This document shows, piece after piece, positions 7,218-41,149 of a DNA stretch of 64,000 nt (positions within the stretch are counted from its first letter, which is position 1; the number at the start of each line of letters is the position of its first letter). The translations under genes were made by a program, and so were the position numbers. Source of the DNA: Gemmatimonadota bacterium (GTDB lineage Bacteria > Gemmatimonadota > Gemmatimonadetes > Palauibacterales > Palauibacteraceae); assembly GCA_039584685.1 (NCBI GenBank), contig JBDGXI010000001.1, positions 15,239-79,238 of the forward strand. Reading direction: 5' to 3'. The notes beneath the pieces are model-generated. The model was not told the origin of the DNA. It ran no database searches and saw nothing but the letters and a program-made list of their open reading frames with translations.

Positions 7218-7880
7218 TCAATCCTGACTGTCGCTGTAGTAGTCCCCGATCCGGCGAGCGGTCACCCAGGCCGTATCGACCGTGATCACGGGCCGGGACC
7301 CGAAGGCTCCGCACAGGCTGAAACCGGAGAGATTCCCGATCACCTGTACCCGGCGCCCGCTGCCGACTTCGGCGCGGACCTCGGGGGGCGCGCCACGCAG
7401 GACGAACGGTCGCTGGTTACCGACCCACCCCGGACCAAACATCAGGCACCCGCCGGCTTCAGCCACCGTACCCTCGCCCCGGGCTCGCATCGACGAAAAC
7501 CGACCGGAATCGAGGGCCACGATGCTCCCGAACTCGAGTTCGCCGGCGGAGACACGATACCGGCCGGCGCTGTCGATTCGCAGAGGCCGGGCCTCGTAGA
7601 AAGCCACCGGACTGTCCGAGCACATCGTATCGTACACACTTCTTCGTCCGGAAAGCCTGATATCCGACCCGTCAAAGACGACCAGGGCCGTATCCAGACG
7701 GCCGCACGCATCCGGCGACACGGGTCCAGCGAATTCGAACGAAAACGCCTGTCCCACCACCACCGTGTCGGGGAACGCCGCCCACGTGATCACGGCAGCG
7801 CTCTCGGTCGGCTCACCGATCCGCCAGCACGCGGTGCTGAGAAGTGTGGCGATCAGAGCGATGGTCCCGGCACAGCGCAT
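7218..7880 (-). CDS. Hypothetical lipoprotein (220 aa)
   Basis: Hydrophobic signal ending in lipobox LSTA-C; beta-rich mature part with four further Cys; start at ATG 7880. Confidence 0.7.
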   Translation of the reverse strand: MRCAGTIALIATLLSTACWRIGEPTESAAVITWAAFPDTVVVGQAFSFEFAGPVSPDACGRLDTALVVFDGSDIRLSGRRSVYDTMCSDSPVAFYEARPLRIDSAGRYRVSAGELEFGSIVALDSGRFSSMRARGEGTVAEAGGCLMFGPGWVGNQRPFVLRGAPPEVRAEVGSGRRVQVIGNLSGFSLCGAFGSRPVITVDTAWVTARRIGDYYSDSQD

Positions 7881-8095
7881 GACACTTCCTGTCAGCCGTT
7901 GAAGGGAACCCTCTCGGGTGTGCGACCGGCGCACCACCGGAGACAGGTGGCGCAATCTGCTCTCGACATCCGGAGGCGGCAAGCGGGAACCTGTGGACCT
8001 CCGCAGAGTTAGAAACAGGTGCAAATCCCGGGCAAACGGTGCGCCGGGCGATCCGAGAGAACGCAGGAGACTCACCGGTGGGTGGGACGAGCCAC

Positions 8096-8812
8096 ATGGA
8101 CGAACCGCGGGGCAGCATACCGGTCGGAGACGGTCGCTTCCCGACCTCGGCGAGCGACAACGCCCGCCGTCACAGGCGGACGGCTGTGGTTGCGCTCGCC
8201 GTTTCTGCGGCCGTCCACGCCGCGGTGTTCCTGCTCTGGAAGACCGACCTGCAGCCCCTTCCGGAAACCGTCGCGGCCGGGCTGCGAATGGGTGACGCTT
8301 CCGCTGCGCCCGGAGGTGGGATTCTGCAGGCGATCGCCCTCGCGCCGCCGCGCGAGATAGTCGTTCCACCGCCCCCCGAAGAAGTGCCCGAGCTGGATGC
8401 CCCGGATGTCGAGGTACGGACACCTCCCGAGCCACGGCTTCAGGCGAGCTTTGCCGACATGCGCAGCGGCGTCTCGTTTCCGGGGCCCGGCGAGGGTCCG
8501 GGAAGACCCGACGGCGAGGGATTGGGCGATGGGGGAACGGAGGCCGAGGGGCGCTTCCGGGTCACGGCGCCGGAGCCCCGCGTCATAGTGCCGGAGTGGG
8601 ATCCGCCCGATGACATCAAGGGGATGCAGGTGCAGATCAGGGTCCTGGTGAGTGCGGAGGGCCGGGCTCTCGATGTAGAAATCAGGCCGCGGACGTCCAA
8701 CGCCGGCTTCAACCGGCGGCTCGTCGACACCTACATGCAGATGGACTACAAACCGGGCCGTCGCATGGGACGCGCGATCACGGCGCCGGCGGAGATCACT
8801 CTGATCTTCTGA
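8096..8812 (+). CDS. TonB-like energy transducer
   Basis: Single N-terminal TM helix with S-x3-H (VSAAVH), Pro-rich linker (VVPPPPEEVP), TonB_C-like C-terminus (VQIRVLVSAEG..DVEI..YKPG..G..I). Confidence 0.72.
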   Translation: MDEPRGSIPVGDGRFPTSASDNARRHRRTAVVALAVSAAVHAAVFLLWKTDLQPLPETVAAGLRMGDASAAPGGGILQAIALAPPREIVVPPPPEEVPELDAPDVEVRTPPEPRLQASFADMRSGVSFPGPGEGPGRPDGEGLGDGGTEAEGRFRVTAPEPRVIVPEWDPPDDIKGMQVQIRVLVSAEGRALDVEIRPRTSNAGFNRRLVDTYMQMDYKPGRRMGRAITAPAEITLIF

Positions 8813-8928: not shown

Positions 8929-11900
8929 ATGTCCTGGCTCAGCGTCTCGTTTCGACGAAGAACCGGCGCGTCGAGGCCGCGTCGGCATATGGCGGCCGCG
9001 CTCCTGGTCCTGCTAGCGCTCTCGACCCTGTGGGTCCGGGCCTTGCCCGGGCAGGAAGTGGGCGGACGGCCCGAGCCGGCTGTTGCCGATTCCGTGCCGG
9101 CAGCCGATTCGTCGGTCGTGGGCGCCGTCGCCGGCGACACCCTGGCGGTAGACACCCTGGCGGTAGACACCCTGGCCGTCGTCACCCTGGCAGCAGACAC
9201 CCTGGCGGCCAGCGGGCCGGCAGCCGACACCTTGCCTCCGCAGCAGATCGAGCCGCCCGGACTGCGTCTCGGTATGACAGCCCTTCCGTACCCGTGGGAT
9301 ACCGATCTCGACCAGGTCCTCGAGGCGTACGGTTCGGACCTCGTCCGCTACACGTGGACCGATGCCCGCACCTGGCTGGCGGACGAGAACGCCGCGACCG
9401 ATCAAACGTTGATGGCTCGCCAGGACACCCTCGCTTGGCTCGGGCTCTCGGTGAACAAGCTCCCGGATGATTTCAGCCGGCGTCGGTTCCTCGCCGAACC
9501 GGAAGTCTCGGCGCCCGATTCGTTGATTCGAGAGCTGGCGCAGGAGCAACGCATCGACATCCTGCCGGACGCCCTGGAGAAGTACGCGGACCTGGAGATG
9601 GAGGTGGACGGCGCCGGGCAGATGAACTCGCGGTGGCAGACCTTCGACCCCTGCACGATCAACGTGGGACAGAAATGCAACGCCGGCGCCGTACCCACGA
9701 TCACTCCTGATTTCCAACTGCGGGCACTGGCCCGTGGGACGATCTCGGATCGGTTTCACGTGGATGTCGATTTCGACCAGACGCGAGAGTTCAACGCGAC
9801 GAACGATCTGCACGTCTACTACCAGGGCAAACCGGGGGAGATTCTCGAATTCGCCGAAGTGGGCCAGGTGAGCCTGCCTCTGCCCCGTTCCCGTTACCTC
9901 TCGCGAGGCATACCGGCGGGAAACTTCGGATTTCGCACCGACGCGCGACTGGGTCCGATGACCCTCCGCGGTGTCCTGGCCGAGCAGGAAGGCAACGTGC
10001 TCGACCGCGACATCACGCTCGACGTCTCGGGAGCGGGCGGTGAGAGCTCCGTTCTCCAGGACTTCGAAACCACCCTGGACGACGCCAGATATCAGACGGG
10101 ACAGTTCTTCTTCCTCGTCGATCCGCGACAAATCCAGGGGTATCCCTACATCGACGTTCTGGCTCTCGAGGGAACCGAGGTGGCGGACAGCCTGCGCCCC
10201 TCTTCTTCGGTGAAGCTGTACCGACACGAGGTGGCGGGCGGCGGTCAGCAGCAGAACGTTCAGGAAGGCGTCATCCAGGCGCGCGGCGTGGCCGCGCGTT
10301 CTCAGCTGGAAGATGATCCGACCGTCCCGGACAGCGTGCAGTTTCTCGGATTCTACCGACCCCTCGTCGAGGGGGAGGACTACATCGTGCACCGCAGCGG
10401 TCTGTGGGCCGTGGTTCGATCTCGCATCCAGCAGAACGAGGCCCTGGCCGGGACCTACATCGCCATCAGCGGTGACACGATCGGCGACTACAACGCCGAG
10501 GACATCTTCCGCAATCTCACTAACACGGGCAGCGGGGAACTCCCGGTCCTGGAGCTGTTCAAGGATGCCGAGACGCACCGTCCGGGAGGAGTCACCTGGG
10601 ATCGCGAGATGCACAACATCTACCGCATCTCCAGCTCGAACGACGTGGAGTGGGGCAGTATCCGACTGGTGGTGTCGCAGGGACCGGTCGAATCGGGTCC
10701 CGTGGTGCGCGTGGCCGATCAGACGGAGTATTCGTTTCTCGAGATCTTCGGCCTGGACGACCAGCCTCGGGACGACAGGCTCGATGACGGCCGGATCTGG
10801 CGTCCCAGCTCGAGCGGTGAGTTCGCCGGGACGGATGTGCTCACCGGCGTCTACCTGGTCTTTAAGGCTCAGGAACCGTTCAAGAGCCCGCCGCCCATCC
10901 AGGACGACCGGGTCCCGGCACTGCAGGGACAGCCGTTTCCGCTCGTCGCTTCGGACATCAACGACGCGATCTACGACGAGTCACTGGACCAGACGCGCCT
11001 GACCGCCTTCCTGTATCGGCTCAACTTCGAGTTCCGATCGCGCAGCTCCGAGGCACAGAGCTCATTCTCTCTCGGGGCGATCGGCATTCGACGGGGCAGC
11101 GAGAGAGTGACGCTGAACGGCAGGGACCTGACGCCGGGCGAGGACTACACGATCGACTACGACATCGGCCAGCTCACCCTGCTGCGTCCCGGAGACCTGT
11201 TCTCCGGTGCCGAGGATCCGCAGCTCGCGGTTCGCTTCGAACAGAAGCCTCTATTCCAGGTAGGCTCGAAGAGCATTCTCGGCTTCACCGGAGAGTACCG
11301 GCTGGGCCAGCACGGCTCGATCGGAATGGTGGGGATGTTCCAGAAGGAGGGTACCGTGCTCACGCGGCCCGACCTGGGACTCGAGCCCAGTGGCGTGACG
11401 CTGGGCGGCGCCGTCGCGAATTTCGACTTCCCATCGCGGGCGTTGGACAATTTCGTCAACAGCTTGCCCGGCATCCGGACTGATCTGGAGTCGCGGGTGA
11501 AATTCACGGGCGAGCTCGCCGCTTCGAGCCCGACGACGAACCGGCTCGGAACGACGTGGGTCGAGGACTTCGAGGTCGGGGCGGGATTCCGTGTCGGCCT
11601 GACCACTCGTTCCTGGCGCCACGGCTCGCTGGTGAGCCGTCCCGACGCCAGTGGCGGTTATCTTCCGGCGGTTCCCGACCTCAGCAATCAGCTGAGCACG
11701 GTGTGGCAATCGCAGTGGGAGGCCAACGGCATCCTGCAGGGTTCACTGCTTGTCAGACAGGTGGATCCGCAGTTGAACGTGCTGAACGCGGGAACCCAGA
11801 CAACCGTTCTGTGGCTCACTACCACGGACCCTCCCCCGGGCGGGGAGCCCGGCTGGTACTCCATCACCACCGTGTTGTCGCAGACGGGAATCGACCTGAG

Positions 11901-14900
11901 CACGAGCGAGTTCCTGGAGTTCTACGCCTCGACCGTGGACAATACCGACGAGAGTCTGGCGCTGATCGTCGACATCGGGACGGTCAGCGAGGACGCGTTC
12001 GTCGCCGACTCGCTCGGCAACCCGTCCGGCACTGGTATTCTGGACCAGGAGGTGGATCCGATCGTCGGCGTGTGGGGAAACCAGGACGACACCGGTCTGT
12101 GGGATACCGGGTGCACGGCGGAGCCCAACGCCTCCGCCTGGCCGCTCGGTGATCAGCGGGCGAACTGTACCAACAACAACGGTCTCGAGGATACCGAGGA
12201 CCTGAACCGCGACAACTTCCTGAACACCGATGAACGCTATTTCCGATACATCGTTCCGCTGACCCAGCCCTCGCGGTACCTGAACCGACCCACGGGCGGC
12301 GAGTTCAAGTTCAACCTGTACCGGCTGCCGCTCCGCCTGCCGGATCTAGAGGAGAACGCCTCTGGCAACGAGCAGCAGAATGTGAAGCACGTACGCATCA
12401 CGCTGACCAGCGCGGTCAGCTCGACCGTGCTGCTCAGCCGGATGCAGTTTTCGGGTTCGCCGTGGCTCAAGCGAGCCGGAACCGGGAGTGTCGTGGGGCC
12501 GATCGGGGATACGCCGGGCACGGCTACGCAGGTCGTGGTGGGGCCGATCTCGACCGTTGACCGGACCTACATTTCGCCTCCCGGGATAACCGACCAGGAA
12601 GCCGACAAGACGGACGAGCTGCGGCTGTCGAACGCCGTAATCAACGAGCAATCTCTGCAGATCGTCTACTCCGATATCCCGGTCGGCGAGAGAGTCGAGG
12701 TGTTCCGGAAGTTCGCGAATCAGCCGCGTGACTTCCTGCCGTACGGGCGCCTGCGAGCGTGGAGCCTCGCACAGGGAGACGATTGGGGCCCGGGAGGCTC
12801 GCTGCGGTTCTTCATCCGCATGGGGTTCGACGCGAACAACTTCTACATGTACCGCACACCTCTTCGGAATTCGCCGGCGCAGCCGAGTCGAGACGACTGG
12901 CTGCCCGAGGACCTGATCGATTTCGACCGCCTGCTGGCGCTCCGCGTGGAAGCGGAGCGTCTCATCGACGCGAGCGGGTCGAACCTGCCTGGAGACACGA
13001 CTTTCGTCCTGTGGGACGTGGACCTGTTTCCCGATGCGGACAGCACCCTGGCACTCGTGATCAACGACCGGTCCCGAGCCCCGAACCTGTCCGCCATACG
13101 CGAGATGGCTCTGGGGATCGAGAACGTGGGGACGGTGGACGCCGGACCGGGCGAGGTGTGGGTGGACGACCTGCGGTTGGACGCGGCGCCGGACGACAAC
13201 GGCGTAGCGGCCCTGGCGGACCTGCAGGTGGATCTGGCGGACGTGTTCAGCCTGCAGGCCGACGTGAACACCGTGAACCCGTTCTACCGGCAGCTCGGGG
13301 AGAAGCCATCGTTCATCCGTCAGCTGGACTATGGTGGCCGCGCCACCCTCCAGGTCGGGAAGTTCCTGCCGGACTCGTGGGGGCTGGTCATGCCGGTCGG
13401 GTTCGCATACGCCAACACCGGCGAGGACCCGTACTTCCTACCCCAGACCGATGTCCTCGCCGCCCCGTTGGAGAACCTGAGGACCGGCAGCTCTTCGGAG
13501 ACCCGCTGGAACGTGGCGCTCTCGAAATCGACCCGTTCGGGCAGCCCGCTGCTGAGGGCCACGATCGATGGCCTGCGCCTCGGTTACACCACCCGCAGCA
13601 GCAAGAGCACGGCGACGCAGACCGAGACGACCGGTTCGGGCTGGGGCGCCACCGGAGCCTGGTCGAGGCAGGTGGTGGACAAGTCCTTCCCGCTCGTGCC
13701 CGGGTTTCTGCGGTCGGCGATCGATGCTCTGCCGACGTTCATTTCACAGAGCGTGCTGATGCAGAACCTCAAGGGCATGAGGTTTCGCTGGACCCCTCGC
13801 CAGATGAACCTGGGCGCCGAGCTCACGAAGTCCGAGGACGCGCGGAGACGATTCCAGACCAGCACGATCCAGGCGACGGACGACGCGGTGATTCCGACGG
13901 TCAACCTGCAGAACGCGCTGCGCCCGCAGGCGGGATTCCAGCTGCAGCCTTTCCCGTCGATCGTGTGGGGGTTCAACTTCCAGTCTGTCCGCGACCTCGT
14001 CGACCCGGCCCTGCGAGCGTCGCGACCGGCGGGTCAGCAGCAGCTGGAGCAGGCCTCCCGCACGTTCCTCGGAATGGATGTGGGCTGGGAGACGAACCGC
14101 AACGTGCGGACGGATCTGAGCTGGCGACCACGACTGGCCAGCTGGTTCGACACCGACTTCGCGATGAACACGAACTACGGCACGAATCGGAACGTCTCGT
14201 ACATCCAGGATCTCGGCGGCGACACGACGCTGGTGCGCGATCTCTCGTTGCAGCGTGACCTGGGCTTCCAGTTCGACGTTCGGCCCGACCAGTTTCTCAC
14301 GGCATTCGGAATCGCGGGGGGGGGGGAAGCCACCGGGATGGCTCGCAGCCTGAGGGCATTCTGGGACCGACTCGCCCCTGTCCGGATCGACTGGCGCAAG
14401 GAGGTCAATTCTACGTATGACCGCCGGGACGTGTACCCCAACCTGTGGGATCAGCTGGTGCTGGTGGGCTTCGATGAGATGCGCGTGATGGGCGCAGATA
14501 CGGCCTCGGCCGCCGGCGACACGCGCGCGTGGTCGGTCGATGGAGGCTACCTGTTTCCGCTCGGCTTCGACCTCGACGTCGGGTACAGCTCGTCCGACCG
14601 GCGGACATTCACGGGTCTCAACGAACGTCGCGTGGTCGATCGCGAGTGGCCGACGCTAAACGTCCGGTGGCGGAACGTTCCCATTCCCGGGTTCGCGGAG
14701 AATCTGCTACGGGACATCAACATCAGCGGAGGGTGGCGCACGCGAGAGACCAACACCAGCACTACGACCGGGCAGGACAGGGGGACCGAGCAGACGGTCC
14801 GATCACTCCAGCTCGTGTTCATCCTGACGAACGGTTTCAATATCACGTACGGTCTCGACAACACGGGATCCGAGCGACTCGATGCGACGGGACTGAGCCA

Positions 14901-15285
14901 GTCAGAGCGTCTGTCACATTCCGTCCGACTGACCGGATTCCTGCCGCCCCCTGGCTTCCTCCCGTTCGTGAAGAACGATCTGCGCCTCTCGTTCGACTAT
15001 TCGAACAATGGAAACTCCGACTGCCGGGCTCTGGGCGGATCGGGGTTCGGGGAGATCAACCAGTCTTTCCGGGACGACTGCACGACGCACACCGACCAGA
15101 CCACGCAGAACGCCGAGTTCGCCATCGACACGGAGTTCACGGGCTACTCTATCGGCGTGCAGCTCGCGTGGGTGGCGCGCTCCAGCGCCGTCGGCCGGCA
15201 GCAATCGTCCAATCAGTTCAACTTCAACATCTTCGGCCGGTTCTTCTTCCGGGCCAGCGAGGGACAGAACCAGTTCAACCGTTGA
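8929..15285 (+). CDS. sprA: Giant outer-membrane beta-barrel protein, SprA/Sov (T9SS translocon) homolog, 2118 aa
   Basis: Signal peptide. VDFDQTREF..LHVYYQGKPGEILEFAEVGQVSLPL..NFGFRTDARLG resembles the SprA N-terminal conserved block; also VTLNGRDLTPGEDYTIDYDIGQLTL, EDTEDLNRDNFL and VWVDDLRL; C-terminal half is alternating amphipathic strands. Confidence 0.8.
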   Translation: MSWLSVSFRRRTGASRPRRHMAAALLVLLALSTLWVRALPGQEVGGRPEPAVADSVPAADSSVVGAVAGDTLAVDTLAVDTLAVVTLAADTLAASGPAADTLPPQQIEPPGLRLGMTALPYPWDTDLDQVLEAYGSDLVRYTWTDARTWLADENAATDQTLMARQDTLAWLGLSVNKLPDDFSRRRFLAEPEVSAPDSLIRELAQEQRIDILPDALEKYADLEMEVDGAGQMNSRWQTFDPCTINVGQKCNAGAVPTITPDFQLRALARGTISDRFHVDVDFDQTREFNATNDLHVYYQGKPGEILEFAEVGQVSLPLPRSRYLSRGIPAGNFGFRTDARLGPMTLRGVLAEQEGNVLDRDITLDVSGAGGESSVLQDFETTLDDARYQTGQFFFLVDPRQIQGYPYIDVLALEGTEVADSLRPSSSVKLYRHEVAGGGQQQNVQEGVIQARGVAARSQLEDDPTVPDSVQFLGFYRPLVEGEDYIVHRSGLWAVVRSRIQQNEALAGTYIAISGDTIGDYNAEDIFRNLTNTGSGELPVLELFKDAETHRPGGVTWDREMHNIYRISSSNDVEWGSIRLVVSQGPVESGPVVRVADQTEYSFLEIFGLDDQPRDDRLDDGRIWRPSSSGEFAGTDVLTGVYLVFKAQEPFKSPPPIQDDRVPALQGQPFPLVASDINDAIYDESLDQTRLTAFLYRLNFEFRSRSSEAQSSFSLGAIGIRRGSERVTLNGRDLTPGEDYTIDYDIGQLTLLRPGDLFSGAEDPQLAVRFEQKPLFQVGSKSILGFTGEYRLGQHGSIGMVGMFQKEGTVLTRPDLGLEPSGVTLGGAVANFDFPSRALDNFVNSLPGIRTDLESRVKFTGELAASSPTTNRLGTTWVEDFEVGAGFRVGLTTRSWRHGSLVSRPDASGGYLPAVPDLSNQLSTVWQSQWEANGILQGSLLVRQVDPQLNVLNAGTQTTVLWLTTTDPPPGGEPGWYSITTVLSQTGIDLSTSEFLEFYASTVDNTDESLALIVDIGTVSEDAFVADSLGNPSGTGILDQEVDPIVGVWGNQDDTGLWDTGCTAEPNASAWPLGDQRANCTNNNGLEDTEDLNRDNFLNTDERYFRYIVPLTQPSRYLNRPTGGEFKFNLYRLPLRLPDLEENASGNEQQNVKHVRITLTSAVSSTVLLSRMQFSGSPWLKRAGTGSVVGPIGDTPGTATQVVVGPISTVDRTYISPPGITDQEADKTDELRLSNAVINEQSLQIVYSDIPVGERVEVFRKFANQPRDFLPYGRLRAWSLAQGDDWGPGGSLRFFIRMGFDANNFYMYRTPLRNSPAQPSRDDWLPEDLIDFDRLLALRVEAERLIDASGSNLPGDTTFVLWDVDLFPDADSTLALVINDRSRAPNLSAIREMALGIENVGTVDAGPGEVWVDDLRLDAAPDDNGVAALADLQVDLADVFSLQADVNTVNPFYRQLGEKPSFIRQLDYGGRATLQVGKFLPDSWGLVMPVGFAYANTGEDPYFLPQTDVLAAPLENLRTGSSSETRWNVALSKSTRSGSPLLRATIDGLRLGYTTRSSKSTATQTETTGSGWGATGAWSRQVVDKSFPLVPGFLRSAIDALPTFISQSVLMQNLKGMRFRWTPRQMNLGAELTKSEDARRRFQTSTIQATDDAVIPTVNLQNALRPQAGFQLQPFPSIVWGFNFQSVRDLVDPALRASRPAGQQQLEQASRTFLGMDVGWETNRNVRTDLSWRPRLASWFDTDFAMNTNYGTNRNVSYIQDLGGDTTLVRDLSLQRDLGFQFDVRPDQFLTAFGIAGGGEATGMARSLRAFWDRLAPVRIDWRKEVNSTYDRRDVYPNLWDQLVLVGFDEMRVMGADTASAAGDTRAWSVDGGYLFPLGFDLDVGYSSSDRRTFTGLNERRVVDREWPTLNVRWRNVPIPGFAENLLRDINISGGWRTRETNTSTTTGQDRGTEQTVRSLQLVFILTNGFNITYGLDNTGSERLDATGLSQSERLSHSVRLTGFLPPPGFLPFVKNDLRLSFDYSNNGNSDCRALGGSGFGEINQSFRDDCTTHTDQTTQNAEFAIDTEFTGYSIGVQLAWVARSSAVGRQQSSNQFNFNIFGRFFFRASEGQNQFNR
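9136..9210 (+). repeat. Five tandem 15-bp units GACACCCTGGCNGYN encoding (D/V)TLA(V/A) in the SprA N-terminal linker
   Basis: GACACCCTGGCGGTA x2, GACACCCTGGCCGTC, GTCACCCTGGCAGCA, GACACCCTGGCGGCC read directly. Confidence 0.95.
14316..14326 (+). repeat. G11 homopolymer in frame within sprA (GCG GGG GGG GGG GAA)
   Basis: Seen directly; longest homopolymer I noticed in the window. Confidence 0.95.
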
Positions 15286-35616: not shown

Positions 35617-36075
35617 ATGAGAAACAGCCGCTTCCTCGGGCCGGCGGGGGTCACCCTGCCGGAACTGCTCATCACGCTCACGGTGATCGGCACTCTCACC
35701 ACGCTGGGCGCCAGTGGCTTCAGGAATCTTCGCGACGCCACCTCGATGCGAGCTGCCACCTGGTCCGTGCGGAATCATCTGGTGCTGGCACGCTCCCTGG
35801 CCATCGCGAGACGGGAGAAGATCAGAATCCGCCAGGACGAATCCGGCGACCTGGTGCTCCTCACGCTATCCGGGGAGAGGGTGGCGGCGGCCTCGGTAGG
35901 CCCATCCTCCGACGTGCCCGTGGACTCGCTTCGGGTCCGGCCATCGACCCTCCGCTTCAACTCTCGCGGGCAGGCGGCGCCAGGAAGCGTGTACCTGTAT
36001 CGAGGCGACAGGGTCGTGCGCGTGGTATCCAATTTCCTCGGTCGGTTGCGCATAGAATCATACCGCGCGCCATGA
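35617..36075 (+). CDS. FimT/GspH-like minor pilin
   Basis: Prepilin site PAG|VTLPELLITL, LARSLAIARR helix, LRFNSRG. Confidence 0.82.
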   Translation: MRNSRFLGPAGVTLPELLITLTVIGTLTTLGASGFRNLRDATSMRAATWSVRNHLVLARSLAIARREKIRIRQDESGDLVLLTLSGERVAAASVGPSSDVPVDSLRVRPSTLRFNSRGQAAPGSVYLYRGDRVVRVVSNFLGRLRIESYRAP

Positions 36076-36527
36076 GGTCCCCGGGAAGCGTCAAGGATTC
36101 AGACAGGGATCGCTGCGTTATGCATGGAGACTCGGCCGGAATCGCCCTAAATACTGCATATTTCAGGCGTGTCGGGGTGGTCACGTTCTTGCACGCCGTG
36201 CTCCTGGGAAACCGCGCTCGGTCCGGTTTCGGTCTGCCGGAAGTAGTGGTGGCCGTCACCGTTCTGGGGGTCGGAGTTCTCGGGGTAGCAGCATTGGGTG
36301 GTGCGGCGAGCAAGCTGAGACACATCGGGGCGGTGCGCAGCGCACAGACGGTTGCCGTCGCCACGTTGCTCGAAGACGTCTCGGCGGTCGGGCCGACGGA
36401 CCTTGAAACCACGGTCGACACGACACGGGTGTTCGAGGGTCTGATCGAGCTCCGCGTGACGGTGAGCGGAGCCGGGCCGGCGGGACCACTGTCATGGGTG
36501 ACCAGAAGACCGTCGGAAGGGCCTTAG
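36072..36527 (+). CDS. PilV-like minor pilin (true start may be GTG 36177 or 36198)
   Basis: RSG|FGLPEVVVAVTVLGVGVLGVAAL prepilin motif. Confidence 0.7.
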   Translation: MRSPGSVKDSDRDRCVMHGDSAGIALNTAYFRRVGVVTFLHAVLLGNRARSGFGLPEVVVAVTVLGVGVLGVAALGGAASKLRHIGAVRSAQTVAVATLLEDVSAVGPTDLETTVDTTRVFEGLIELRVTVSGAGPAGPLSWVTRRPSEGP

Positions 36528-36539
36528 CTCAGTACCCTG

Positions 36540-36555
36540 GGGCGTGACCGTTGCG
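36540..36555 (+). promoter_or_regulatory. Weaker sigma54-like element upstream of pilM
   Basis: GGGCGTGACCGTTGCG = GG-N10-GC. Confidence 0.4.
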
Positions 36556-36614
36556 TGCATGCTACACGCAGGTGAAGTTGCTGCGACGGAGGAGGCGACG
36601 CGGGCCGAAATGAA

Positions 36615-36644
36615 TTGACGCGCCGGACGTATGCGCAGTATCGT
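36615..36644 (+). promoter_or_regulatory. Sigma70-like promoter upstream of pilM
   Basis: TTGACG-N18-TATCGT. Confidence 0.5.
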
Positions 36645-36693
36645 GCCACACCGTCCGGCTGGTCCCGACAAGATCTCGTTGAGCAAGTGTATC

Positions 36694-37740
36694 ATGGCTC
36701 TATTTGGCATCGGCCGAAAAAAGAAGACGGTTGGCCTTGACGTTGGAAGCGGCTTCATCAAGGTCGCGATCGTCGATCACACGGGACCCGTGCCCGAGGT
36801 CGAGCGTCTCGTCGTCCACCGCCTCGGAGCCGATGCCATCGTCGAGGGAGAGGTCATGGATCCGGGCCTCGTGGCCGAGACCATCGATACTCTGTTCGTC
36901 GAAGAGGGCATCCACGACAGGGACGTGGTGGCTTCGGTCGGAGGGCGGGACCTGATCATCAAGCCCATCCAGATGGACCGGATGAAGAAGTCCGACGCTC
37001 GCGAGGTCATCCGGTGGGAGGCGGAGCAGTACGTGCCCTTCGACATGGACGACGTGCAGCTGGACTTCGAGATTACGGACCCCGAGGGTGAAGGTCTGCA
37101 GATGAGCGTTCTGCTCGTCGCCGCCAAACGGGAGCTCGTCGAAAACAAGGTCGCGCTCCTCGAAGAGGCGAACCTCGCTCCTCGAATCATAGACGTAGAC
37201 GCCTTCGCTCTCCACAATTCGCTCCAGCTCAACTACCCGGAAGCCATGAAAGGCATCTCCGGTCTCGTGAGCATCGGCCACGAGACGGCGAACGTGAACA
37301 TCCTCGAGGATGGGGTGCCGGTCCTGACCCGCGATCTGACGTTCGGTACGCGGCGCCTGTCGCTGGACCTGCAGCGCGAGCGTGGGATGTTGGCCGAAGA
37401 GGCGGAGGCGGTTCTCAGGGGCGAGAACGTGGACGAGAGACTGCGGAATTTCCTCTACGAGCGGGCGCAGGAAGTGGGACGAGGGATCGAGCGGGCCACG
37501 GCGTTTCTCGAGACACAGGAAGTGGGGGCCAGCCTCGGGCGGCTCTACCTGTGCGGTGGCGGCGTGCGCGTTCCCGGCCTCGTCGAGGCGCTCGCCGAGC
37601 GGCTCGGAGTGGAGACGCGCGTGGCGAGTTCGTTCGAGGTGCTGAACGTCAAGCCGGGCGCCGCCGAAGCCGAGAACCTCGAGCACATGGGACCCATGAT
37701 GATGCTGGCCATCGGACTGGCCCTGCGGGAAGCGGCATGA
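36694..37740 (+). CDS. pilM: Type IV pilus assembly protein PilM (actin-like)
   Basis: VGLDVGSGFIKVA, EAEQYVPF, VLLVAAK, VDAFAL, LCGGG; start at ATG 36694. Confidence 0.95.
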   Translation: MALFGIGRKKKTVGLDVGSGFIKVAIVDHTGPVPEVERLVVHRLGADAIVEGEVMDPGLVAETIDTLFVEEGIHDRDVVASVGGRDLIIKPIQMDRMKKSDAREVIRWEAEQYVPFDMDDVQLDFEITDPEGEGLQMSVLLVAAKRELVENKVALLEEANLAPRIIDVDAFALHNSLQLNYPEAMKGISGLVSIGHETANVNILEDGVPVLTRDLTFGTRRLSLDLQRERGMLAEEAEAVLRGENVDERLRNFLYERAQEVGRGIERATAFLETQEVGASLGRLYLCGGGVRVPGLVEALAERLGVETRVASSFEVLNVKPGAAEAENLEHMGPMMMLAIGLALREAA

Positions 37741-37750
37741 GGTCCCTGCG

Positions 37751-38386
37751 ATGATCGAGGTCAATCTTCATCCGCAGGGATCCAAGAAGCGTCGGAAGGG
37801 GCGCAAGCTTCCGACGGCACCGGGCTGGTTGAAGTCGACCGGCACCGGCGAGGGTCGCGACCGGTGGCTGATCGCGGCCGTAGCGATCCCCGCCCTGGTC
37901 TTACTGGTCGTCGGCTGGATGTGGTTCACGCAGCGCGCCGAACGCGGCGCGCTGGACGAGCGGGTCGTGGAGGCCGTGGCTGATTCGAGCCGGCTTTCAG
38001 ACCTGAGAGCGTTGAGCGACAGCCTTATCGCCCGCGAGGCGCAGATCAGTGAGCGGCTCCGGCTTCTCGAGGGCCTCGACGGCGGCCGCTTCGTGTGGCC
38101 TCGCCTTCTGGACGAATTCAGCCGTGCTCTCCCGGACTACGCCTGGCTGACGTCGATTCGCGAAGCCAACGCCCTTCCGGATCTCCAGGTCCAGATCGAC
38201 GGAATGGCGGCGAATCCGCTTGCGATCACCGCCTTCGTCCGCAGCCTCCAGGAATCGCCTTTCGTTGAGGAGGTTCGGATTCTGGGGAGCCAGGAGCAGG
38301 ACCTGGAGGGATTCAGTGCGCACACGTTCAGCCTGATCGTCGGGTACTCGGAACCGGCGGCGCCTGATGCAGGGGAGGATACCTGA
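37751..38386 (+). CDS. pilN: Type IV pilus assembly protein PilN
   Basis: IEVNLHP (INLLP-type) motif, one TM helix, coiled coil, LPDYAWLTSI. Confidence 0.9.
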   Translation: MIEVNLHPQGSKKRRKGRKLPTAPGWLKSTGTGEGRDRWLIAAVAIPALVLLVVGWMWFTQRAERGALDERVVEAVADSSRLSDLRALSDSLIAREAQISERLRLLEGLDGGRFVWPRLLDEFSRALPDYAWLTSIREANALPDLQVQIDGMAANPLAITAFVRSLQESPFVEEVRILGSQEQDLEGFSAHTFSLIVGYSEPAAPDAGEDT

Positions 38387-38388
38387 CC

Positions 38389-38991
38389 ATGGCGATCCTC
38401 CCGCAGGACCAGCGCCAGCAGATGATGCTGCTCGCGATCATTCTCGCACTGGCAGCGGGCGCGTTGTACTACAACTTCAGCTACCGTTCCGGGGCCGAGG
38501 AGCTCGTGAGCCTGACGGACCGCGTGGAAGACCTCGAGACCCAGAACCAGCTCGCGGAAGCGCGGATCGGAAACCTGCAGCAGCTGCGCGATCGGATCAG
38601 TGAGGCCGAGATCCAGTTCGAGCTCGTCGAGCGGCTGGTGCCGTCGGATGCCGAAGTGGCGGCGATCTACGAGGCCATCGCGACCGAGAGTCAGGCCCTC
38701 GATCTGCGCCTGATCAACGTGGAGCCGAGCCTCCCGGAGCCCGCGGACAGTGGGGCTTACTTCTTGCGGCAGGAATGGCTGATGCAGGTGGAAGGGGACT
38801 ACCACTCGCTAGCCGAGTTTCTGACCCGGGTGGCTTCTTTCGACCGAATCGTGCGCCCGCGCGTGACGCAGGTGGCTCCCACCGCGCAGACTCCGAGTGG
38901 GCGGCAAAAGGTGATAGCCTCCTTCGGATTGGAGACCTACGTGCTGGCTCCCGAAGAGGCGCAGGCGGTTGTCCCGGAGGTGACGGAGTGA
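38389..38991 (+). CDS. pilO: Type IV pilus assembly protein PilO
   Basis: TM helix, coiled coil, LVPSDAEV, VEGDYHSLAEFL..FDRIV; position in the operon. Confidence 0.88.
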   Translation: MAILPQDQRQQMMLLAIILALAAGALYYNFSYRSGAEELVSLTDRVEDLETQNQLAEARIGNLQQLRDRISEAEIQFELVERLVPSDAEVAAIYEAIATESQALDLRLINVEPSLPEPADSGAYFLRQEWLMQVEGDYHSLAEFLTRVASFDRIVRPRVTQVAPTAQTPSGRQKVIASFGLETYVLAPEEAQAVVPEVTE

Positions 38992-39428
38992 TTGCGCGCG
39001 GGCTGGCGGCCCTGGCCGTTCTCCTCCTGGCAGCGCCGGGACTGTGGGCGCAGGAAGGCGAGCCGGATGATGCGGCCCCGGTGGAGGCGGTGCAGGCCGC
39101 TCCGACGCTGCAGCGAGAATCGTTTTCGTACTCCGGCGCCGGGCGGCGTGATCCGTTCAAGGCGCTGGAGGCTGGTGACGAGCTCGGACCTCGATTCGAG
39201 AACCTGGAGCTCGCCGGGATCATATTCAGCCCGCAAGCGGGCAGCGTGATCGTCCTGGTGGATCGATCGACGCAGAGGCGGCACCGCGTCTGGGAAGGCG
39301 ACATCGTAGGCGGCGCGACGTTGCTCGACGTGACGCCGGACGAGGCGGTCTTCAGGGTCACCGTCTTCGGCGTCAGCAGACAGGATACGCTGCGCCTGAA
39401 GAACACGGACAAGGAGCAGGGCGGATGA
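38988..39428 (+). CDS. pilP: PilP-like protein (no lipobox)
   Basis: RRDPF motif, LELAGII, position between pilO and pilQ; GTG start at 38988. Confidence 0.7.
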   Translation: MIARGLAALAVLLLAAPGLWAQEGEPDDAAPVEAVQAAPTLQRESFSYSGAGRRDPFKALEAGDELGPRFENLELAGIIFSPQAGSVIVLVDRSTQRRHRVWEGDIVGGATLLDVTPDEAVFRVTVFGVSRQDTLRLKNTDKEQGG

Positions 39429-41149
39429 TCGGCAAACAGGTCCTCGCGACCCTCCTGGCAACCCTCTGGGCGGCGGCGCCCGTGGGCCACGTTCAGGAGG
39501 TCCGGATCTCCTCTTCCGGAGATCAGACCGAGATCGCCGTCATCACGAACGGCGAGGTGGAGGTCCGGGACTTCATCCTGAGGGACCCGGCGCGCCTGAT
39601 TCTCGACGTTCACGGTGCGGTCAACGAACTTCCCGAGGGCACCTTCGAAGGCATCGGGCGTGGCGGAATCGTGCGACTGAGGAGCAGTCAGTTCAGAGAC
39701 GATGTGGTCCGCCTGGTGTTCGATCTCGCGCAGGCGCCGAGCTATCAGACGGCATCGGAATCCGGGCAGTACACCGTTCGCTTCACGAACCCCGGCGGGA
39801 CGTTCGATACGTGGAGCAGCGGATCCGTGGCGACAGGAACGGTCGCCATGCTGGATCGCGTGCCCGAACCGACTGTGGCTCCCGCTCGGGCGGCTGGTCG
39901 CACCATGCAACAGGATGCGACGGATCTCGAACGCATTACGGTGGCGTACGACAGCGCCAGCATGCTTGAGGTGCTGGCCGGGTTCTCGGAGTTCGCGGGG
40001 GTTTCGATCGTCCCGAGCACGGACGCTGCAGGGATGACCGTGCAGGGTGTCGACATCCGTAACCAGAGATGGGACGTGGCCCTCGACGCCATCCTCGCGT
40101 CGCAGGGTCTGGGGTGGAGGCTGCAGTCCGAGGGGATCCTGATCGTGGACAAGCTGGAGGGGATCCGGGCGCGCGACACGCTGCAGACCGAGACGCGGGT
40201 TTTCAAGATCAATTACGCCGCGGCCGATTCCGTGGCCTCGACACTCGAGCGGCTCGCCACGCCGAATCGCGGCCAGGTCGTTCCGTACCTGGGCGCCAAC
40301 TCCGTGATCGTCACGGATGCGCCTTCGGTCGTGGCCCGCATGGACAGCCTGATCCGCAACCTGGATGTGAAGACGCCCCAGGTTTCCATCGAAGCCAAGA
40401 TCATCTTCGTGGACCGCACGGACGTGATGGAGCTGGGGATCATCTACGATCTCAAGGACATGCAGGGGAACTCCATCAACGACGTGATCGGTGTTCCCGA
40501 TCCGCTGAATCCGGGCGAGATCACGAACCAGACGCTGGTGGACCTGGGCGGTAACTCAGTCGCCGTCCTGGCCAACGCCAACGACCAGGTTCTGACTCCA
40601 TCCCTGGAGATCCTCGCTTCCGTGGCGTTCGGTGACTTCTCGCTGTCCGCGTGGCTCCAGGCCCTCGAGCAGCACAAGCTTTCCGACGTGCAGGCCGCGC
40701 CAACGATCCAGGTGGTCGATAACCACCACGCCCGGATCCAGGTCGGTGAGAAGACCCCCGTGCGCGTCCTGGACGCGGGTACCGGGAACACCCAGGCGCA
40801 GGCGACCGTACAGTACGAGGACACGGGGATCATCCTCGATGTCACGCCGCACATCACGAACAACAGCCAGATCCTGCTCGACGTATCGGCCGAGCGGTCG
40901 GGTATCCAGACCGAGATCCCGGATATCGGATTCACGTTCCTGAAGCAGATCGGCCAAACGCGCCTCCTGCTGGACGACGGCGAGACCATGGTCATCGGAG
41001 GCCTCACTCTGAGCCAGGTGGACCGGTCGGAGACGGGAATCCCGCTTCTCATGGATATTCCGGTCCTCGGAGCGCTGTTCCGCACGACCAAGAACTCAGA
41101 ACGCAAGACGGATCTGATCATCCTGGTGACGCCTCACATCGTGGATTAG
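39425..41149 (+). CDS. pilQ: Type IV pilus secretin with N-terminal AMIN domain
   Basis: PARLILDV (AMIN), WDVALDAIL, QVSIEAKII, LDDGETMVIGGL, IPLLMDIPVLGALF, LIILVTPHI. Confidence 0.95.
   Translation: MIGKQVLATLLATLWAAAPVGHVQEVRISSSGDQTEIAVITNGEVEVRDFILRDPARLILDVHGAVNELPEGTFEGIGRGGIVRLRSSQFRDDVVRLVFDLAQAPSYQTASESGQYTVRFTNPGGTFDTWSSGSVATGTVAMLDRVPEPTVAPARAAGRTMQQDATDLERITVAYDSASMLEVLAGFSEFAGVSIVPSTDAAGMTVQGVDIRNQRWDVALDAILASQGLGWRLQSEGILIVDKLEGIRARDTLQTETRVFKINYAAADSVASTLERLATPNRGQVVPYLGANSVIVTDAPSVVARMDSLIRNLDVKTPQVSIEAKIIFVDRTDVMELGIIYDLKDMQGNSINDVIGVPDPLNPGEITNQTLVDLGGNSVAVLANANDQVLTPSLEILASVAFGDFSLSAWLQALEQHKLSDVQAAPTIQVVDNHHARIQVGEKTPVRVLDAGTGNTQAQATVQYEDTGIILDVTPHITNNSQILLDVSAERSGIQTEIPDIGFTFLKQIGQTRLLLDDGETMVIGGLTLSQVDRSETGIPLLMDIPVLGALFRTTKNSERKTDLIILVTPHIVD

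What the first reader, a model, noticed from the sequence alone, without database searches (positions are those of the whole stretch)
9070..9240. SprA N-terminal linker is a tandem array of D-(S/T)-hydrophobic motifs, the Bacteroidota O-glycosylation sequon
Seen: ADSV..GDTLAVDTLAVDTLAVVTLAADTLAA..ADTL, i.e. one DSV and five DTL within about 50 residues, built largely from 15-bp DNA repeats. Known: Bacteroidota general O-glycosylation targets D-(S/T)-(A/L/V/I/M/T). The same motif recurs in other exported proteins here (PilN DSL; PilP DTL; PilQ DTL, DSV, DSL; the 7.2-kb lipoprotein). Inference: a mucin-like glycosylated stalk, and a Bacteroidota-type general O-glycosylation system outside that phylum, possibly served by the GT-C cluster in this window. 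Repeat number could also vary between strains.
Basis: partly seen in the sequence, partly recalled or inferred. Interest (0 to 1): 0.62.

Follow-up and report, generated by a model that had tools for sequence, protein, structure and literature searches.

The report
Glycosylation-motif repeat in SprA's periplasmic tether
A secretion-pore protein (SprA) of an uncultured Gemmatimonadota bacterium starts with a variable-length repeat made of the three-residue motif that Bacteroidota use for protein O-glycosylation. The same motif is enriched in exported proteins across these genomes, so this glycosylation system probably extends beyond Bacteroidota.

Summary
Window 8929-15285 (+) encodes a 2118-aa SprA/Sov homologue. 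A 15-bp tandem repeat (9136-9208, 4.9 copies) builds a tether between the signal peptide and the first conserved domain, with one DSV and five DTL.

The motif, not the sequence, is conserved. Nineteen SprA orthologues from two Gemmatimonadota families have unalignable tethers, yet together carry 63 D-[ST]-[ALVIMT] triplets against 7.1±2.5 in shuffles. Unit number varies from 2 to 5 among close relatives, and one relative has DSLAV instead of DTLAV.

I counted the motif in the first 120 mature residues of exported proteins against per-protein shuffles:
- this genome: 1.48x (z 7.7)
- three other Gemmatimonadota: 1.73x
- five Bacteroidota: 2.30x
- E. coli plus S. meliloti pSymB: 0.95x

Cytoplasmic proteins and control motifs are flat. 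Asp specificity and the L/I/V/A/T preference match Bacteroidota.

Nothing ties the window's GT-C cluster to this motif. A TMEM260-like GT-C elsewhere in the genome is a better candidate enzyme, because among the control genomes only B. thetaiotaomicron has one. Glycosylation itself is unproven.

The parts
8929..15285 (+). sprA/sov homologue, 2118 aa (giant outer-membrane translocon of the type IX secretion kind)
   Evidence: TIGR04189 E 1e-141, 474 bits (cut-off 200). PF14349 E 1e-23. Residues 259-410 align to F. johnsoniae SprA 168-314 in 6H3I/6H3J. Orthologues in 26 of 31 related genomes.
8929..9042 (+). signal peptide (aa 1-38, predicted cleavage VRA|LPGQ)
   Evidence: My own heuristic predictor, score 34 from the ATG at 8929. 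The N-terminus MSWLSVSFRRR...VRALPGQ is conserved in all genus orthologues.
9043..9258 (+). variable N-terminal tether (aa 39-110) carrying six D-(S/T)-hydrophobic sequons
   Evidence: Length and sequence vary between a conserved signal peptide and the conserved GLRLGMTxLPYPW block. 6 sequons against 0.57 in shuffles. No secondary structure in the low-confidence AF2 model. The homologous N-terminus of F. johnsoniae SprA is periplasmic and intrinsically disordered (PMC10994853).
9136..9208 (+). 15-bp tandem repeat, 4.9 copies, encoding DTLAV-DTLAV-DTLAV-VTLAA-DTL(AA)
   Evidence: TRF score 111, 86% matches, no indels. The window has exactly one 15-nt unit more than the 95%-identical relative L032. 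A metagenome contig (L181) has two DSLAV units.
9088..9096 (+). sequon DSV (aa 54-56), outside the repeat, conserved as D-S/T-V/I/L in the genus
9226..9234 (+). sequon DTL (aa 100-102) in the conserved AADT(L/I/V)PPQQ end of the tether, outside the repeat
9424..9525 (+). two further sequons (D166-T-L and D197-S-L) in the periplasmic N-domain, invariant in the genus alignment
   Evidence: Invariant columns D166 T167 L168 and D197 S198. Positions listed.
7218..7880 (-). 220-aa lipoprotein with five sequons (DTV, DTA, DTM, DSA, DTA). It is the only other protein in the window with a significant excess.
   Evidence: 5 observed against 0.8 expected, 0 of 500 shuffles reach 5. No Pfam family.
25363..35524 (+). 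It follows the type IV pilin gene (24873-25244).
   Evidence: Pfam hits. The 658-aa member is conserved in 29 of 31 relatives, always 18-28 kb from sprA. PMT_2 does not hit the B. thetaiotaomicron control. No link to the sequon was found.

Best explanation
The repeat encodes the start of the mature SprA protein: a flexible, periplasmic tether between the signal peptide and the first folded N-terminal domain of a giant outer-membrane translocon. Replication slippage of a 15-bp unit changes the number of DTLAV units. Selection keeps one thing in this tether, the triplet Asp-(Ser/Thr)-(Leu/Ile/Val/Ala/Thr). That triplet is the acceptor site of the general protein O-glycosylation system known from Bacteroidota. 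Exported proteins of this genome and of other Gemmatimonadota carry the same over-representation of it as Bacteroidota do.

The most likely mechanism is this. After Sec export, a periplasm-facing membrane glycosyltransferase puts a sugar on the Thr/Ser of each unit. The tether then becomes a short glycan-coated stalk that is protected from periplasmic proteases and kept extended. The number of glycans is set by repeat number.

Shown: the repeat, its variability, conservation of the motif, the genome-wide signature and its controls. Inferred: that the signature means glycosylation, and which enzyme does it. My candidate enzyme is the TMEM260-like GT-C at C274:5126-7549 of the assembly, not the PMT_2/YfhO cluster in the window.
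For: 1. Tether anatomy.

2. Nineteen SprA orthologues carry 63 sequons against 7.1±2.5 in within-tether shuffles. 72 of 107 Asp are followed by Ser/Thr. The excess holds separately in the genus (21 vs 2.8) and in a second family whose tethers read QDT[TAL]/QDS[IV] and cannot be aligned (18 vs 1.8).

3. Close relatives have 5, 4 or 2 units. The 2-unit relative has DSLAV, a Thr-to-Ser change that keeps the sequon.

4. Genome-wide counts in the first 120 mature residues of exported proteins, against per-protein shuffles:
- G000: 319 vs 215.6±13.5 (1.48x, z 7.7)
- three family-f2 Gemmatimonadota: 90 vs 52.1 (1.73x, z 5.7)
- Bacteroidota pool: 185 vs 80.3 (2.30x, z 12.7)
- E. coli K-12: 36 vs 33.3
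- S. meliloti pSymB: 26 vs 31.9

5. The enrichment falls from the N-terminus inward (1.56, 1.32, 0.97). Bacteroidota show the same gradient (2.51, 2.11, 1.34). Cytoplasmic proteins are flat.

6. An unbiased scan of the exported N-terminal 120 residues picks out the sequon. Ser (1.66) and Thr (1.24) stand furthest above their cytoplasmic values (1.02, 0.91) in D-X-h; Pro, Tyr and Arg reach 1.25-1.31 but score about the same in cytoplasmic proteins. Asp (1.46) is the top residue in X-[ST]-h, while Glu is 1.02. After D-[ST] the order is L>I>V>A>T. This matches the reported Bacteroidota preference (PMC12871550).

7. The signal is not driven by paralogues or by my thresholds.

8. In F. johnsoniae the SprA N-terminus is periplasmic, and the translocon partner SprE is O-glycosylated at this motif (PMC10994853).

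9. PF11028 (TMEM260-like) hits only B. thetaiotaomicron among 14 control genomes. It is present in all 5 sampled Bacteroidota, in G000 (E 2e-43, 10 TM segments) and in 30 of 31 relatives. Human TMEM260 is a protein O-mannosyltransferase (PMC10214176). [quoted passage not shown]
Against: - No glycan has been observed. The whole case is statistical.
- The enrichment is weaker than in four of the five sampled Bacteroidota (1.5-1.7x against 2.6-5.8x in the first 60 residues).
- Over whole proteins it is only 1.1-1.2x.
- The metG-wzx-glycosyltransferase locus described for Bacteroides is absent next to metG here.
- My gene caller and signal-peptide predictor are home-made heuristics.
- The negative controls are only two Proteobacterial replicons, 800 kb each.
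- The Saprospiraceae genome has two TMEM260-like genes but only a weak signal (1.2x), so enzyme presence and signal strength do not track simply.
- The SprA units use Thr, whereas the genome-wide excess is stronger for Ser.
Confidence: 0.55

Rival explanations
1. A plain slippage-born low-complexity spacer. The DTLAV units are a by-product of duplicating one 15-bp unit, the tether only has to be flexible and of roughly the right length, and nothing is attached to it. The genome-wide excess of the triplet reflects some other property of disordered periplasmic tethers in these phyla.
For: Three to four of the six sequons come from one duplicated unit. Unit number drifts between relatives. One unit has already decayed to VTLAA. 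No glycan evidence exists. The AF2 model is uninformative.
Against: Orthologous tethers that share no alignable sequence and no repeat still hold about 9 times more sequons than their own composition predicts. The reversed triplet h-[ST]-D appears only 12 times against 63. The Thr-to-Ser swap in L181 keeps the motif. The genome-wide excess is specific for Asp (not Glu), for Ser/Thr and for L/I/V/A/T. It is seen only in exported proteins. It mirrors Bacteroidota, where it is known to mark glycosylation, and is absent in E. coli and pSymB.
Confidence: 0.2
2. The tether is glycosylated, but by the GT-C cluster in this window. A GT2 would make polyprenyl-phosphate-sugar, and the PMT_2/YfhO-type enzymes would transfer it in the periplasm.
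For: The cluster has the right enzyme types for periplasmic glycosylation from a lipid-linked monosaccharide. It is conserved in 29 of 31 relatives and always lies 18-28 kb from sprA.
Against: It sits directly between the type IV pilin gene and pilMNOPQ, the classical position of pilin-modifying enzymes. The closest analogy I recall is P. aeruginosa TfpW, from my own knowledge and not tested here. The PMT_2 family gives no hit in the B. thetaiotaomicron control, so it cannot be the enzyme shared with Bacteroidota. PMT_2 is also present in organisms without the sequon signature, such as E. coli. The conserved distance to sprA is explained by a conserved sprA-comEA-pil super-locus.
Confidence: 0.12
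3. The DTLAV units are docking strands rather than glycosylation sites. They could be TonB-box-like beta-strand motifs for the TonB-like protein encoded just upstream (8078-8812), or binding sites for a periplasmic chaperone such as the SkpA trimer that holds the SprA N-terminus in F. johnsoniae.
For: E. coli TonB boxes read DTLVVTA or DTIVVTA (my own knowledge). A co-directional gene that another first-stage note calls tonB-like ends 116 nt before sprA. The SprA N-terminus is held by SkpA in F. johnsoniae.
Against: The TonB-dependent transporters of this genome have boxes of the type P-I-x-V-T-x-x-R and none starts with D-T. The second-family tethers read QDTTRRP, QDTARARAP or QDTLPPP, which are rich in Pro and Arg and cannot form such strands. 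With about 10 transporters in the genome, TonB boxes cannot explain an excess of about 100 sites. The upstream protein matches no Pfam family.
Confidence: 0.07

Closest known systems
General protein O-glycosylation of Bacteroidota (B. fragilis, T. forsythia, P. gingivalis, F. johnsoniae; sequon D-(S/T)-(A/I/L/V/M/T))
   Same: The same three-residue motif. The same restriction to exported proteins. The same Asp requirement (Glu not enriched). The same preference order for the third residue. The same fall-off from the N-terminus of mature proteins when measured with one pipeline (PMC12871550).
   Different: The organism is Gemmatimonadota. The signal is about half as strong. No metG-wzx-glycosyltransferase locus is present. 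No glycan has been seen. The Bacteroidota transferase itself was still unidentified in the 2025 review, so enzyme homology cannot be tested directly.
O-glycosylated T9SS translocon partner SprE and the SkpA-held N-terminus of SprA in Flavobacterium johnsoniae (PMC10994853)
   Same: The same translocon family. The N-terminus is periplasmic and disordered on its own. A component of the same machine is glycosylated at this motif, and the glycans matter for its stability.
   Different: In F. johnsoniae the glycosylated component reported is SprE, not SprA. The one Bacteroidota SprA I read (Saprospiraceae) has a single DTI near its N-terminus, not an array. Here the sites sit in a tandem repeat of variable number.
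Human TMEM260 (PF11028 family), a protein O-mannosyltransferase (PMC10214176)
   Same: G000 encodes an 807-aa, 10-TM protein that matches PF11028 at E 2e-43. The family's spread among the genomes tested coincides with the sequon signature.
   Different: The gene lies outside the window, on contig C274. Bacterial members have no demonstrated activity. Human TMEM260 acts on folded IPT domains, not on a linear sequon. The link to this sequon is my inference.
Ser/Thr/Ala/Pro-rich glycosylated linkers of actinobacterial secreted proteins (Pmt, GT39) and low-complexity acceptor regions of Neisseria PglL substrates
   Same: Disordered, repeat-prone segments of exported proteins that serve as O-glycan acceptors (my own knowledge).
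   Different: Those systems have no strict sequon. Here one Asp-anchored triplet is what is conserved.

Membership tests
Bacteroidota-type general O-glycosylation (sequon system) | D-(S/T)-(A/I/L/V/M/T) over-represented in exported proteins relative to composition | tested here: met
   First 120 mature residues: 1.48x (z 7.7) in G000 and 1.73x in three other Gemmatimonadota. The same pipeline gives 2.30x in Bacteroidota and 0.95x in E. coli plus pSymB.
Bacteroidota-type general O-glycosylation (sequon system) | Asp is required at -1 and Glu does not substitute | tested here: met
   In X-[ST]-h, Asp scores 1.46 and is the top of 20 residues, while Glu scores 1.02. E[ST]h scores 1.04 in shuffles.
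Bacteroidota-type general O-glycosylation (sequon system) | Third residue preference L, I, V, T, A | tested here: met
   G000: L 1.88, I 1.64, V 1.41, A 1.34, T 1.24. Polar residues, Phe and Met are depleted. The pattern is the same in the Bacteroidota pool and flat in the negatives.
Bacteroidota-type general O-glycosylation (sequon system) | Confined to non-cytoplasmic proteins | tested here: met
   Cytoplasmic proteins score 0.95-0.97 at all positions.
Bacteroidota-type general O-glycosylation (sequon system) | Glycan covalently attached to the Ser/Thr of the sequon | not testable with these tools
   Needs glycoproteomics. The organism is an uncultured MAG.
Bacteroidota-type general O-glycosylation (sequon system) | LFG-type locus (metG followed by wzx flippase and glycosyltransferases) | tested here: not met
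   metG lies at C180:18476-20011 and has no flippase or glycosyltransferase neighbours. This layout is described for Bacteroides and relatives, not for the whole phylum.
Bacteroidota-type general O-glycosylation (sequon system) | Organism belongs to Bacteroidota | tested here: not met
   The closest records are all titled Gemmatimonadota bacterium.
Bacteroidota-type general O-glycosylation (sequon system) | The transferring enzyme | tested here: inconclusive
   The enzyme is unknown in the literature. The candidate PF11028 family is shared by Bacteroidota and these Gemmatimonadota and absent from 13 other control genomes.
SprA/Sov translocon (T9SS) | Matches the equivalog model over its cut-off and aligns to the solved barrel | tested here: met
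   TIGR04189 scores 474 bits against a cut-off of 200. PF14349 matches. There is a match to 6H3I/6H3J.
SprA/Sov translocon (T9SS) | Works with T9SS motor, ring and shuttle proteins (GldKLMN/PorV) and CTD-bearing cargo | not tested
   Left to the separate finding on the tonB-sprA unit.
Coding tandem repeat of variable number | In-frame head-to-tail units whose number differs among close relatives | tested here: met
   15-bp unit, 4.9 copies. 5, 4 and 2 units in sequences whose flanks are at least 93% identical.
Coding tandem repeat of variable number | Variation within one population (reads) | not testable with these tools
TonB box | Resembles the TonB boxes of the same genome's TonB-dependent transporters | tested here: not met
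   The genome's own boxes read PIAVTATR, NPITVTTSRR, LEAITVEGER and similar. None is D-T-L-A-V.
PMT_2/YfhO GT-C cluster of the window as the sequon transferase | Family shared with organisms that use the sequon and absent from those that do not | tested here: not met
   PMT_2 hits E. coli and eight other controls but not B. thetaiotaomicron. YfhO hits B. subtilis, L. lactis and B. thetaiotaomicron.
TMEM260-like GT-C (PF11028) | Pfam domain over cut-off in a multi-pass membrane protein with a soluble C-terminal part | tested here: met
   C274:5126-7549 (-), 807 aa, 10 predicted TM segments, 148.6 bits against a cut-off of 24.2. It lies outside the window.
TMEM260-like GT-C (PF11028) | Transfers a sugar to the sequon | not testable with these tools
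   No bacterial member has been characterised in the papers I could search.

The most novel reading that the evidence does not exclude
Gemmatimonadota run the same sequon-directed general O-glycosylation as Bacteroidota. The system would be inherited from a common ancestor of the FCB group and started by a TMEM260-like GT-C enzyme that puts the first hexose on D-(S/T)-hydrophobic sites. That enzyme would then be the long-missing Bacteroidota transferase. The SprA tether would be a slippage-tunable glycan stalk on the secretion pore.
Probability: 0.35. Interest if true: 0.8.

Novelty: new member of a known kind. Interest (0 to 1): 0.62.

Why it matters
The D-(S/T)-hydrophobic O-glycosylation system is treated as a hallmark of Bacteroidota, and its transferring enzyme was still unknown in the 2025 review. 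A clear, controlled sequon signature in a second phylum would move the origin of the system back to an ancestor shared by both phyla.

A second phylum also narrows the search for the enzyme. Families shared by both phyla and absent elsewhere become candidates, and the TMEM260-like GT-C fits that pattern. Cultivated Gemmatimonas species offer a new place to test it.

For the SprA protein itself, a repeat-encoded acceptor array means the glycan load on the periplasmic end of a secretion pore can change by simple slippage.

Tried and rejected
- **Whole-protein sequon counts.** Only 1.1-1.2x in exported against 0.97 in cytoplasmic proteins, too weak to judge alone. The positional analysis is what carries the signal.
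- **First positive control.** 400 kb of a Saprospiraceae genome gave no clear signal. I replaced it with four SusD-rich Bacteroidota genomes.
- **Hypothesis-free 3-mer ranking over whole exported proteins.** DSL, DTL, DSI and DSA rank only around 100-150 of 4977, below beta-propeller motifs such as WSP and SPD.
- **LFG-type metG-wzx synteny.** Absent.
- **TonB-box reading.** Rejected.
- **PMT_2 and YfhO as the shared enzyme.** Their phyletic pattern does not fit.
- **Wzy_C (PglL/WaaL-type).** One sub-threshold hit in G000, and the family is present in 9 of 14 controls, so it is not informative.
- **Apparent loss of the TMEM260-like gene in G024 and G025.** Both truncations abut runs of 100 N in the stored sequence. 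They are gaps or masking, not gene loss.
- **AF2 on the first 400 residues with a 7-row alignment.** Mean pLDDT 36.5. It is usable only as weak support that residues 33-126 have no predicted structure.
- **Literature.** No paper in the searchable library links Gemmatimonadota with this glycosylation, or DUF2723/TMEM260 with Bacteroidota.
Full report
**What is in the sequence**

The ORF at 8929-15285 (+) gives a 2118-aa protein. It matches the SprA/Sov equivalog model TIGR04189 at 474 bits (cut-off 200) and PF14349. Residues 259-410 align to residues 168-314 of the solved F. johnsoniae SprA barrel.

After a signal peptide (aa 1-38) comes a 72-residue stretch: LPGQEVGGRPEPAVADSVPAADSSVVGAVAGDTLAVDTLAVDTLAVVTLAADTLAASGPAADTLPPQQIEPP. 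It ends at the conserved block GLRLGMTxLPYPW. Tandem Repeats Finder reports a 15-bp unit, 4.9 copies, at 9136-9208. The six sequons are DSV at aa 54 and DTL at aa 70, 75, 80, 90 and 100.

This is the densest cluster of the motif in all 2925 proteins I called in the assembly. Part of that density is one duplicated unit, so the copies are not independent events.

**Organism and topology**

The nearest public records (79-95% identity over the protein) are all Gemmatimonadota MAGs. SprA homologues occur in 26 of 31 related genomes.

[quoted passage not shown] The partner lipoprotein SprE is O-glycosylated at the Bacteroidota motif (PMC10994853). The barrel starts near aa 259 here. The tether is therefore the extreme end of a periplasmic extension, where a periplasm-facing transferase could reach it. 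An AF2 model built on a shallow alignment was poor (mean pLDDT 36.5). It predicts no secondary structure for residues 33-126.

**The motif, not the sequence, is conserved**

I collected the tether from 19 orthologues: 10 in the same genus and 9 from a second family.

Inside the genus the middle of the tether varies freely. Examples are PAVDV units in one relative and DPTATDSAATDL in another. In the second family it cannot be aligned at all and reads QDTAVQP, QDTLPPP, QDTTRRPQAGQDTTRSAAAPQDTTSRDSVSQDTAATTIAQDSVV and so on.

Yet the 19 tethers hold 63 D-[ST]-[ALVIMT] triplets against 7.1±2.5 when each tether is shuffled. The reversed triplet occurs 12 times. 72 of 107 Asp residues are followed by Ser or Thr. 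The excess holds in each group separately, 21 against 2.8 and 18 against 1.8.

The window has exactly one 15-nt unit more than a 95%-identical relative. A metagenome contig with near-identical flanks has only two units, and they read DSLAV. So unit number varies from 2 to 5, and a Thr-to-Ser change preserved the motif.

**The genome-wide test**

No gene caller was available, so I wrote one. It uses a codon log-odds model with start and RBS weights and covers 89% of the assembly with 2925 genes. I also wrote a heuristic signal-peptide, lipobox and TM classifier. It gave 540 exported soluble proteins and 1392 cytoplasmic proteins.

Over whole proteins the sequon is only mildly enriched, 1.11-1.21 in exported against 0.97 in cytoplasmic proteins. 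The signal is positional:

| Mature residues, exported proteins | Observed / expected |
|---|---|
| 1-60 | 178 / 114.3 (1.56) |
| 61-120 | 1.32 |
| beyond 120 | 0.97 |
| cytoplasmic, all positions | 0.96-0.97 |

The control motifs E[ST]h, h[ST]D and D[AG]h are flat.

Per-protein shuffles of the first 120 residues give 319 against 215.6±13.5 (z 7.7). 317 of the 319 sites have distinct contexts.

A scan of all residues in the exported N-terminal 120 residues picks out the sequon. In D-X-h, Ser (1.66) and Thr (1.24) stand furthest above their cytoplasmic values of 1.02 and 0.91; Pro, Tyr and Arg reach 1.25-1.31 but score about the same in cytoplasmic proteins. In X-[ST]-h, Asp (1.46) is the top residue and Glu is 1.02. 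After D-[ST] the order is L 1.88, I 1.64, V 1.41, A 1.34, T 1.24. That matches the order reported for Bacteroidota glycosites (PMC12871550).

**Controls with the same pipeline** (first 120 mature residues of exported proteins, sequon count against per-protein shuffles)

| Set | Observed / shuffle mean | Ratio |
|---|---|---|
| G000 (this genome) | 319 / 215.6 | 1.48 (z 7.7) |
| Gemmatimonadota family f2 (G022, G024, G025; 800 kb) | 90 / 52.1 | 1.73 (z 5.7) |
| Bacteroidota pool (5 genomes, 1.2 Mb) | 185 / 80.3 | 2.30 (z 12.7) |
| E. coli K-12 (800 kb) | 36 / 33.3 | 1.08 |
| S. meliloti pSymB (800 kb) | 26 / 31.9 | 0.82 |
| Both negatives pooled | 62 / 64.9 | 0.95 |

Four SusD-rich Bacteroidota genomes give 2.6-5.8x in the first 60 residues, 1.8-4.0x in the next 60 and less beyond. 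That is the same gradient as in G000. A Saprospiraceae sample is weak at 1.2x. The three family-f2 Gemmatimonadota replicate the signal independently.

Only about 10 TonB-dependent transporters exist in G000, so TonB boxes cannot account for roughly 100 excess sites.

**Which enzyme**

The window's GT-C cluster (25363-35524) holds a YfhO-like protein, three PMT_2 proteins, an unassigned multi-pass protein and a GT2. It lies directly after the type IV pilin gene and before pilMNOPQ. Its 658-aa member is conserved in 29 of 31 relatives, always 18-28 kb from sprA, as part of a conserved sprA-comEA-pil super-locus.

PMT_2 hits nine control genomes including E. coli, but not B. thetaiotaomicron. 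The pilin carries no sequon. I found nothing that ties this cluster to the motif. A pilin-directed role is the more economical reading.

PF11028 (TMEM260-like) behaves differently. It hits only B. thetaiotaomicron among the 14 control genomes. It is strong in all five sampled Bacteroidota, in G000 (C274:5126-7549, 807 aa, 10 TM segments, E 2e-43) and in 30 of 31 relatives. The two apparent truncations, in G024 and G025, abut runs of 100 N and are not losses.

Human TMEM260 is a protein O-mannosyltransferase (PMC10214176). The reducing-end sugar of the Bacteroidota glycan is reported as mannose, and the transferase is still unidentified. This makes the family a reasonable candidate, but that is inference. 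Earlier notes of this scan propose the same candidate in other phyla. I read them after and do not count them as evidence.

The metG-wzx locus typical of Bacteroides is absent.

**Rivals**

- **Neutral slippage spacer.** This fails to explain motif conservation across unalignable tethers or the specific genome-wide signature.
- **TonB-box or chaperone-docking.** This fails because the genome's own TonB boxes look different, and the second-family tethers are Pro- and Arg-rich around the motif.
- **Glycosylation by the window's own GT-C cluster.** This remains possible but unsupported.

**Verdict**

The repeat is real. It encodes a periplasmic tether made of the Bacteroidota O-glycosylation sequon. 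That sequon is under selection both in SprA tethers and in exported proteins of Gemmatimonadota. Actual glycosylation, and the enzyme, remain to be shown.

**Limits**

- The gene and signal-peptide calls are heuristic.
- The negative controls come from one phylum only.

Noticed in passing
window 24873-41149: A six-gene membrane glycosyltransferase cluster (YfhO-like, three PMT_2, one unassigned multi-pass protein, one GT2) is inserted between the type IV pilin gene and the minor pilin and pilMNOPQ genes. The pilin has no D-S/T-hydrophobic site, so if it is the acceptor the rule must be different.
   Followed up: partly
window 8929-41149, and G019/G021/G024/G025/G026/G027 loci: sprA, comEA, pilBTC, the pilin, the GT-C cluster and pilMNOPQ keep the same order and spacing across two Gemmatimonadota families. 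sprA and the 658-aa GT-C are always 18-28 kb apart on the same strand. This is a conserved super-locus joining a T9SS-type translocon with type IV pilus genes.
   Followed up: partly
genome contig C274:5126-9436 (outside the window): The TMEM260-like GT-C gene is preceded on the same strand by a 592-aa acidic protein with no Pfam match. That protein has a low-complexity patch holding six sequons (DSIMATVGVDSFQ...DSVTVEGDLAVPDSLAVSDDLAVPDDPTLQDSLVVPDSL). I found no signal peptide at the called start. The GT-C protein itself has no sequon.
   Followed up: partly
L225 (G025:C1 around 310614) and L226 (G024:C1 around 3933819): In both single-contig relatives the TMEM260-like gene is cut by a run of exactly 100 N. 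This mimics gene loss in searches.
   Followed up: yes
window 7218-7880 (-): A 220-aa lipoprotein of unknown family, divergent from the tonB-like/sprA pair, carries five sequons against 0.8 expected.
   Followed up: partly
L081-L100 and L205-L224 (S. meliloti pSymB): Cytoplasmic proteins of pSymB are depleted in D-[ST]-hydrophobic (72 against 114 in shuffles, z -4.0), while the reversed triplet is normal. I have no explanation.
   Followed up: no
G031:C1:1062922-1066710 (inside L042/L043): The Saprospiraceae genome has two TMEM260-like genes 3 kb apart, yet shows only a weak sequon signal in the 400 kb sampled.
   Followed up: no
genome-wide, G000 cytoplasmic proteins, first 60 residues: The reversed triplet hydrophobic-[ST]-D is enriched 1.25x at the N-termini of cytoplasmic proteins (289 against 231). 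E. coli shows a similar excess. This is unrelated to the finding.
   Followed up: no
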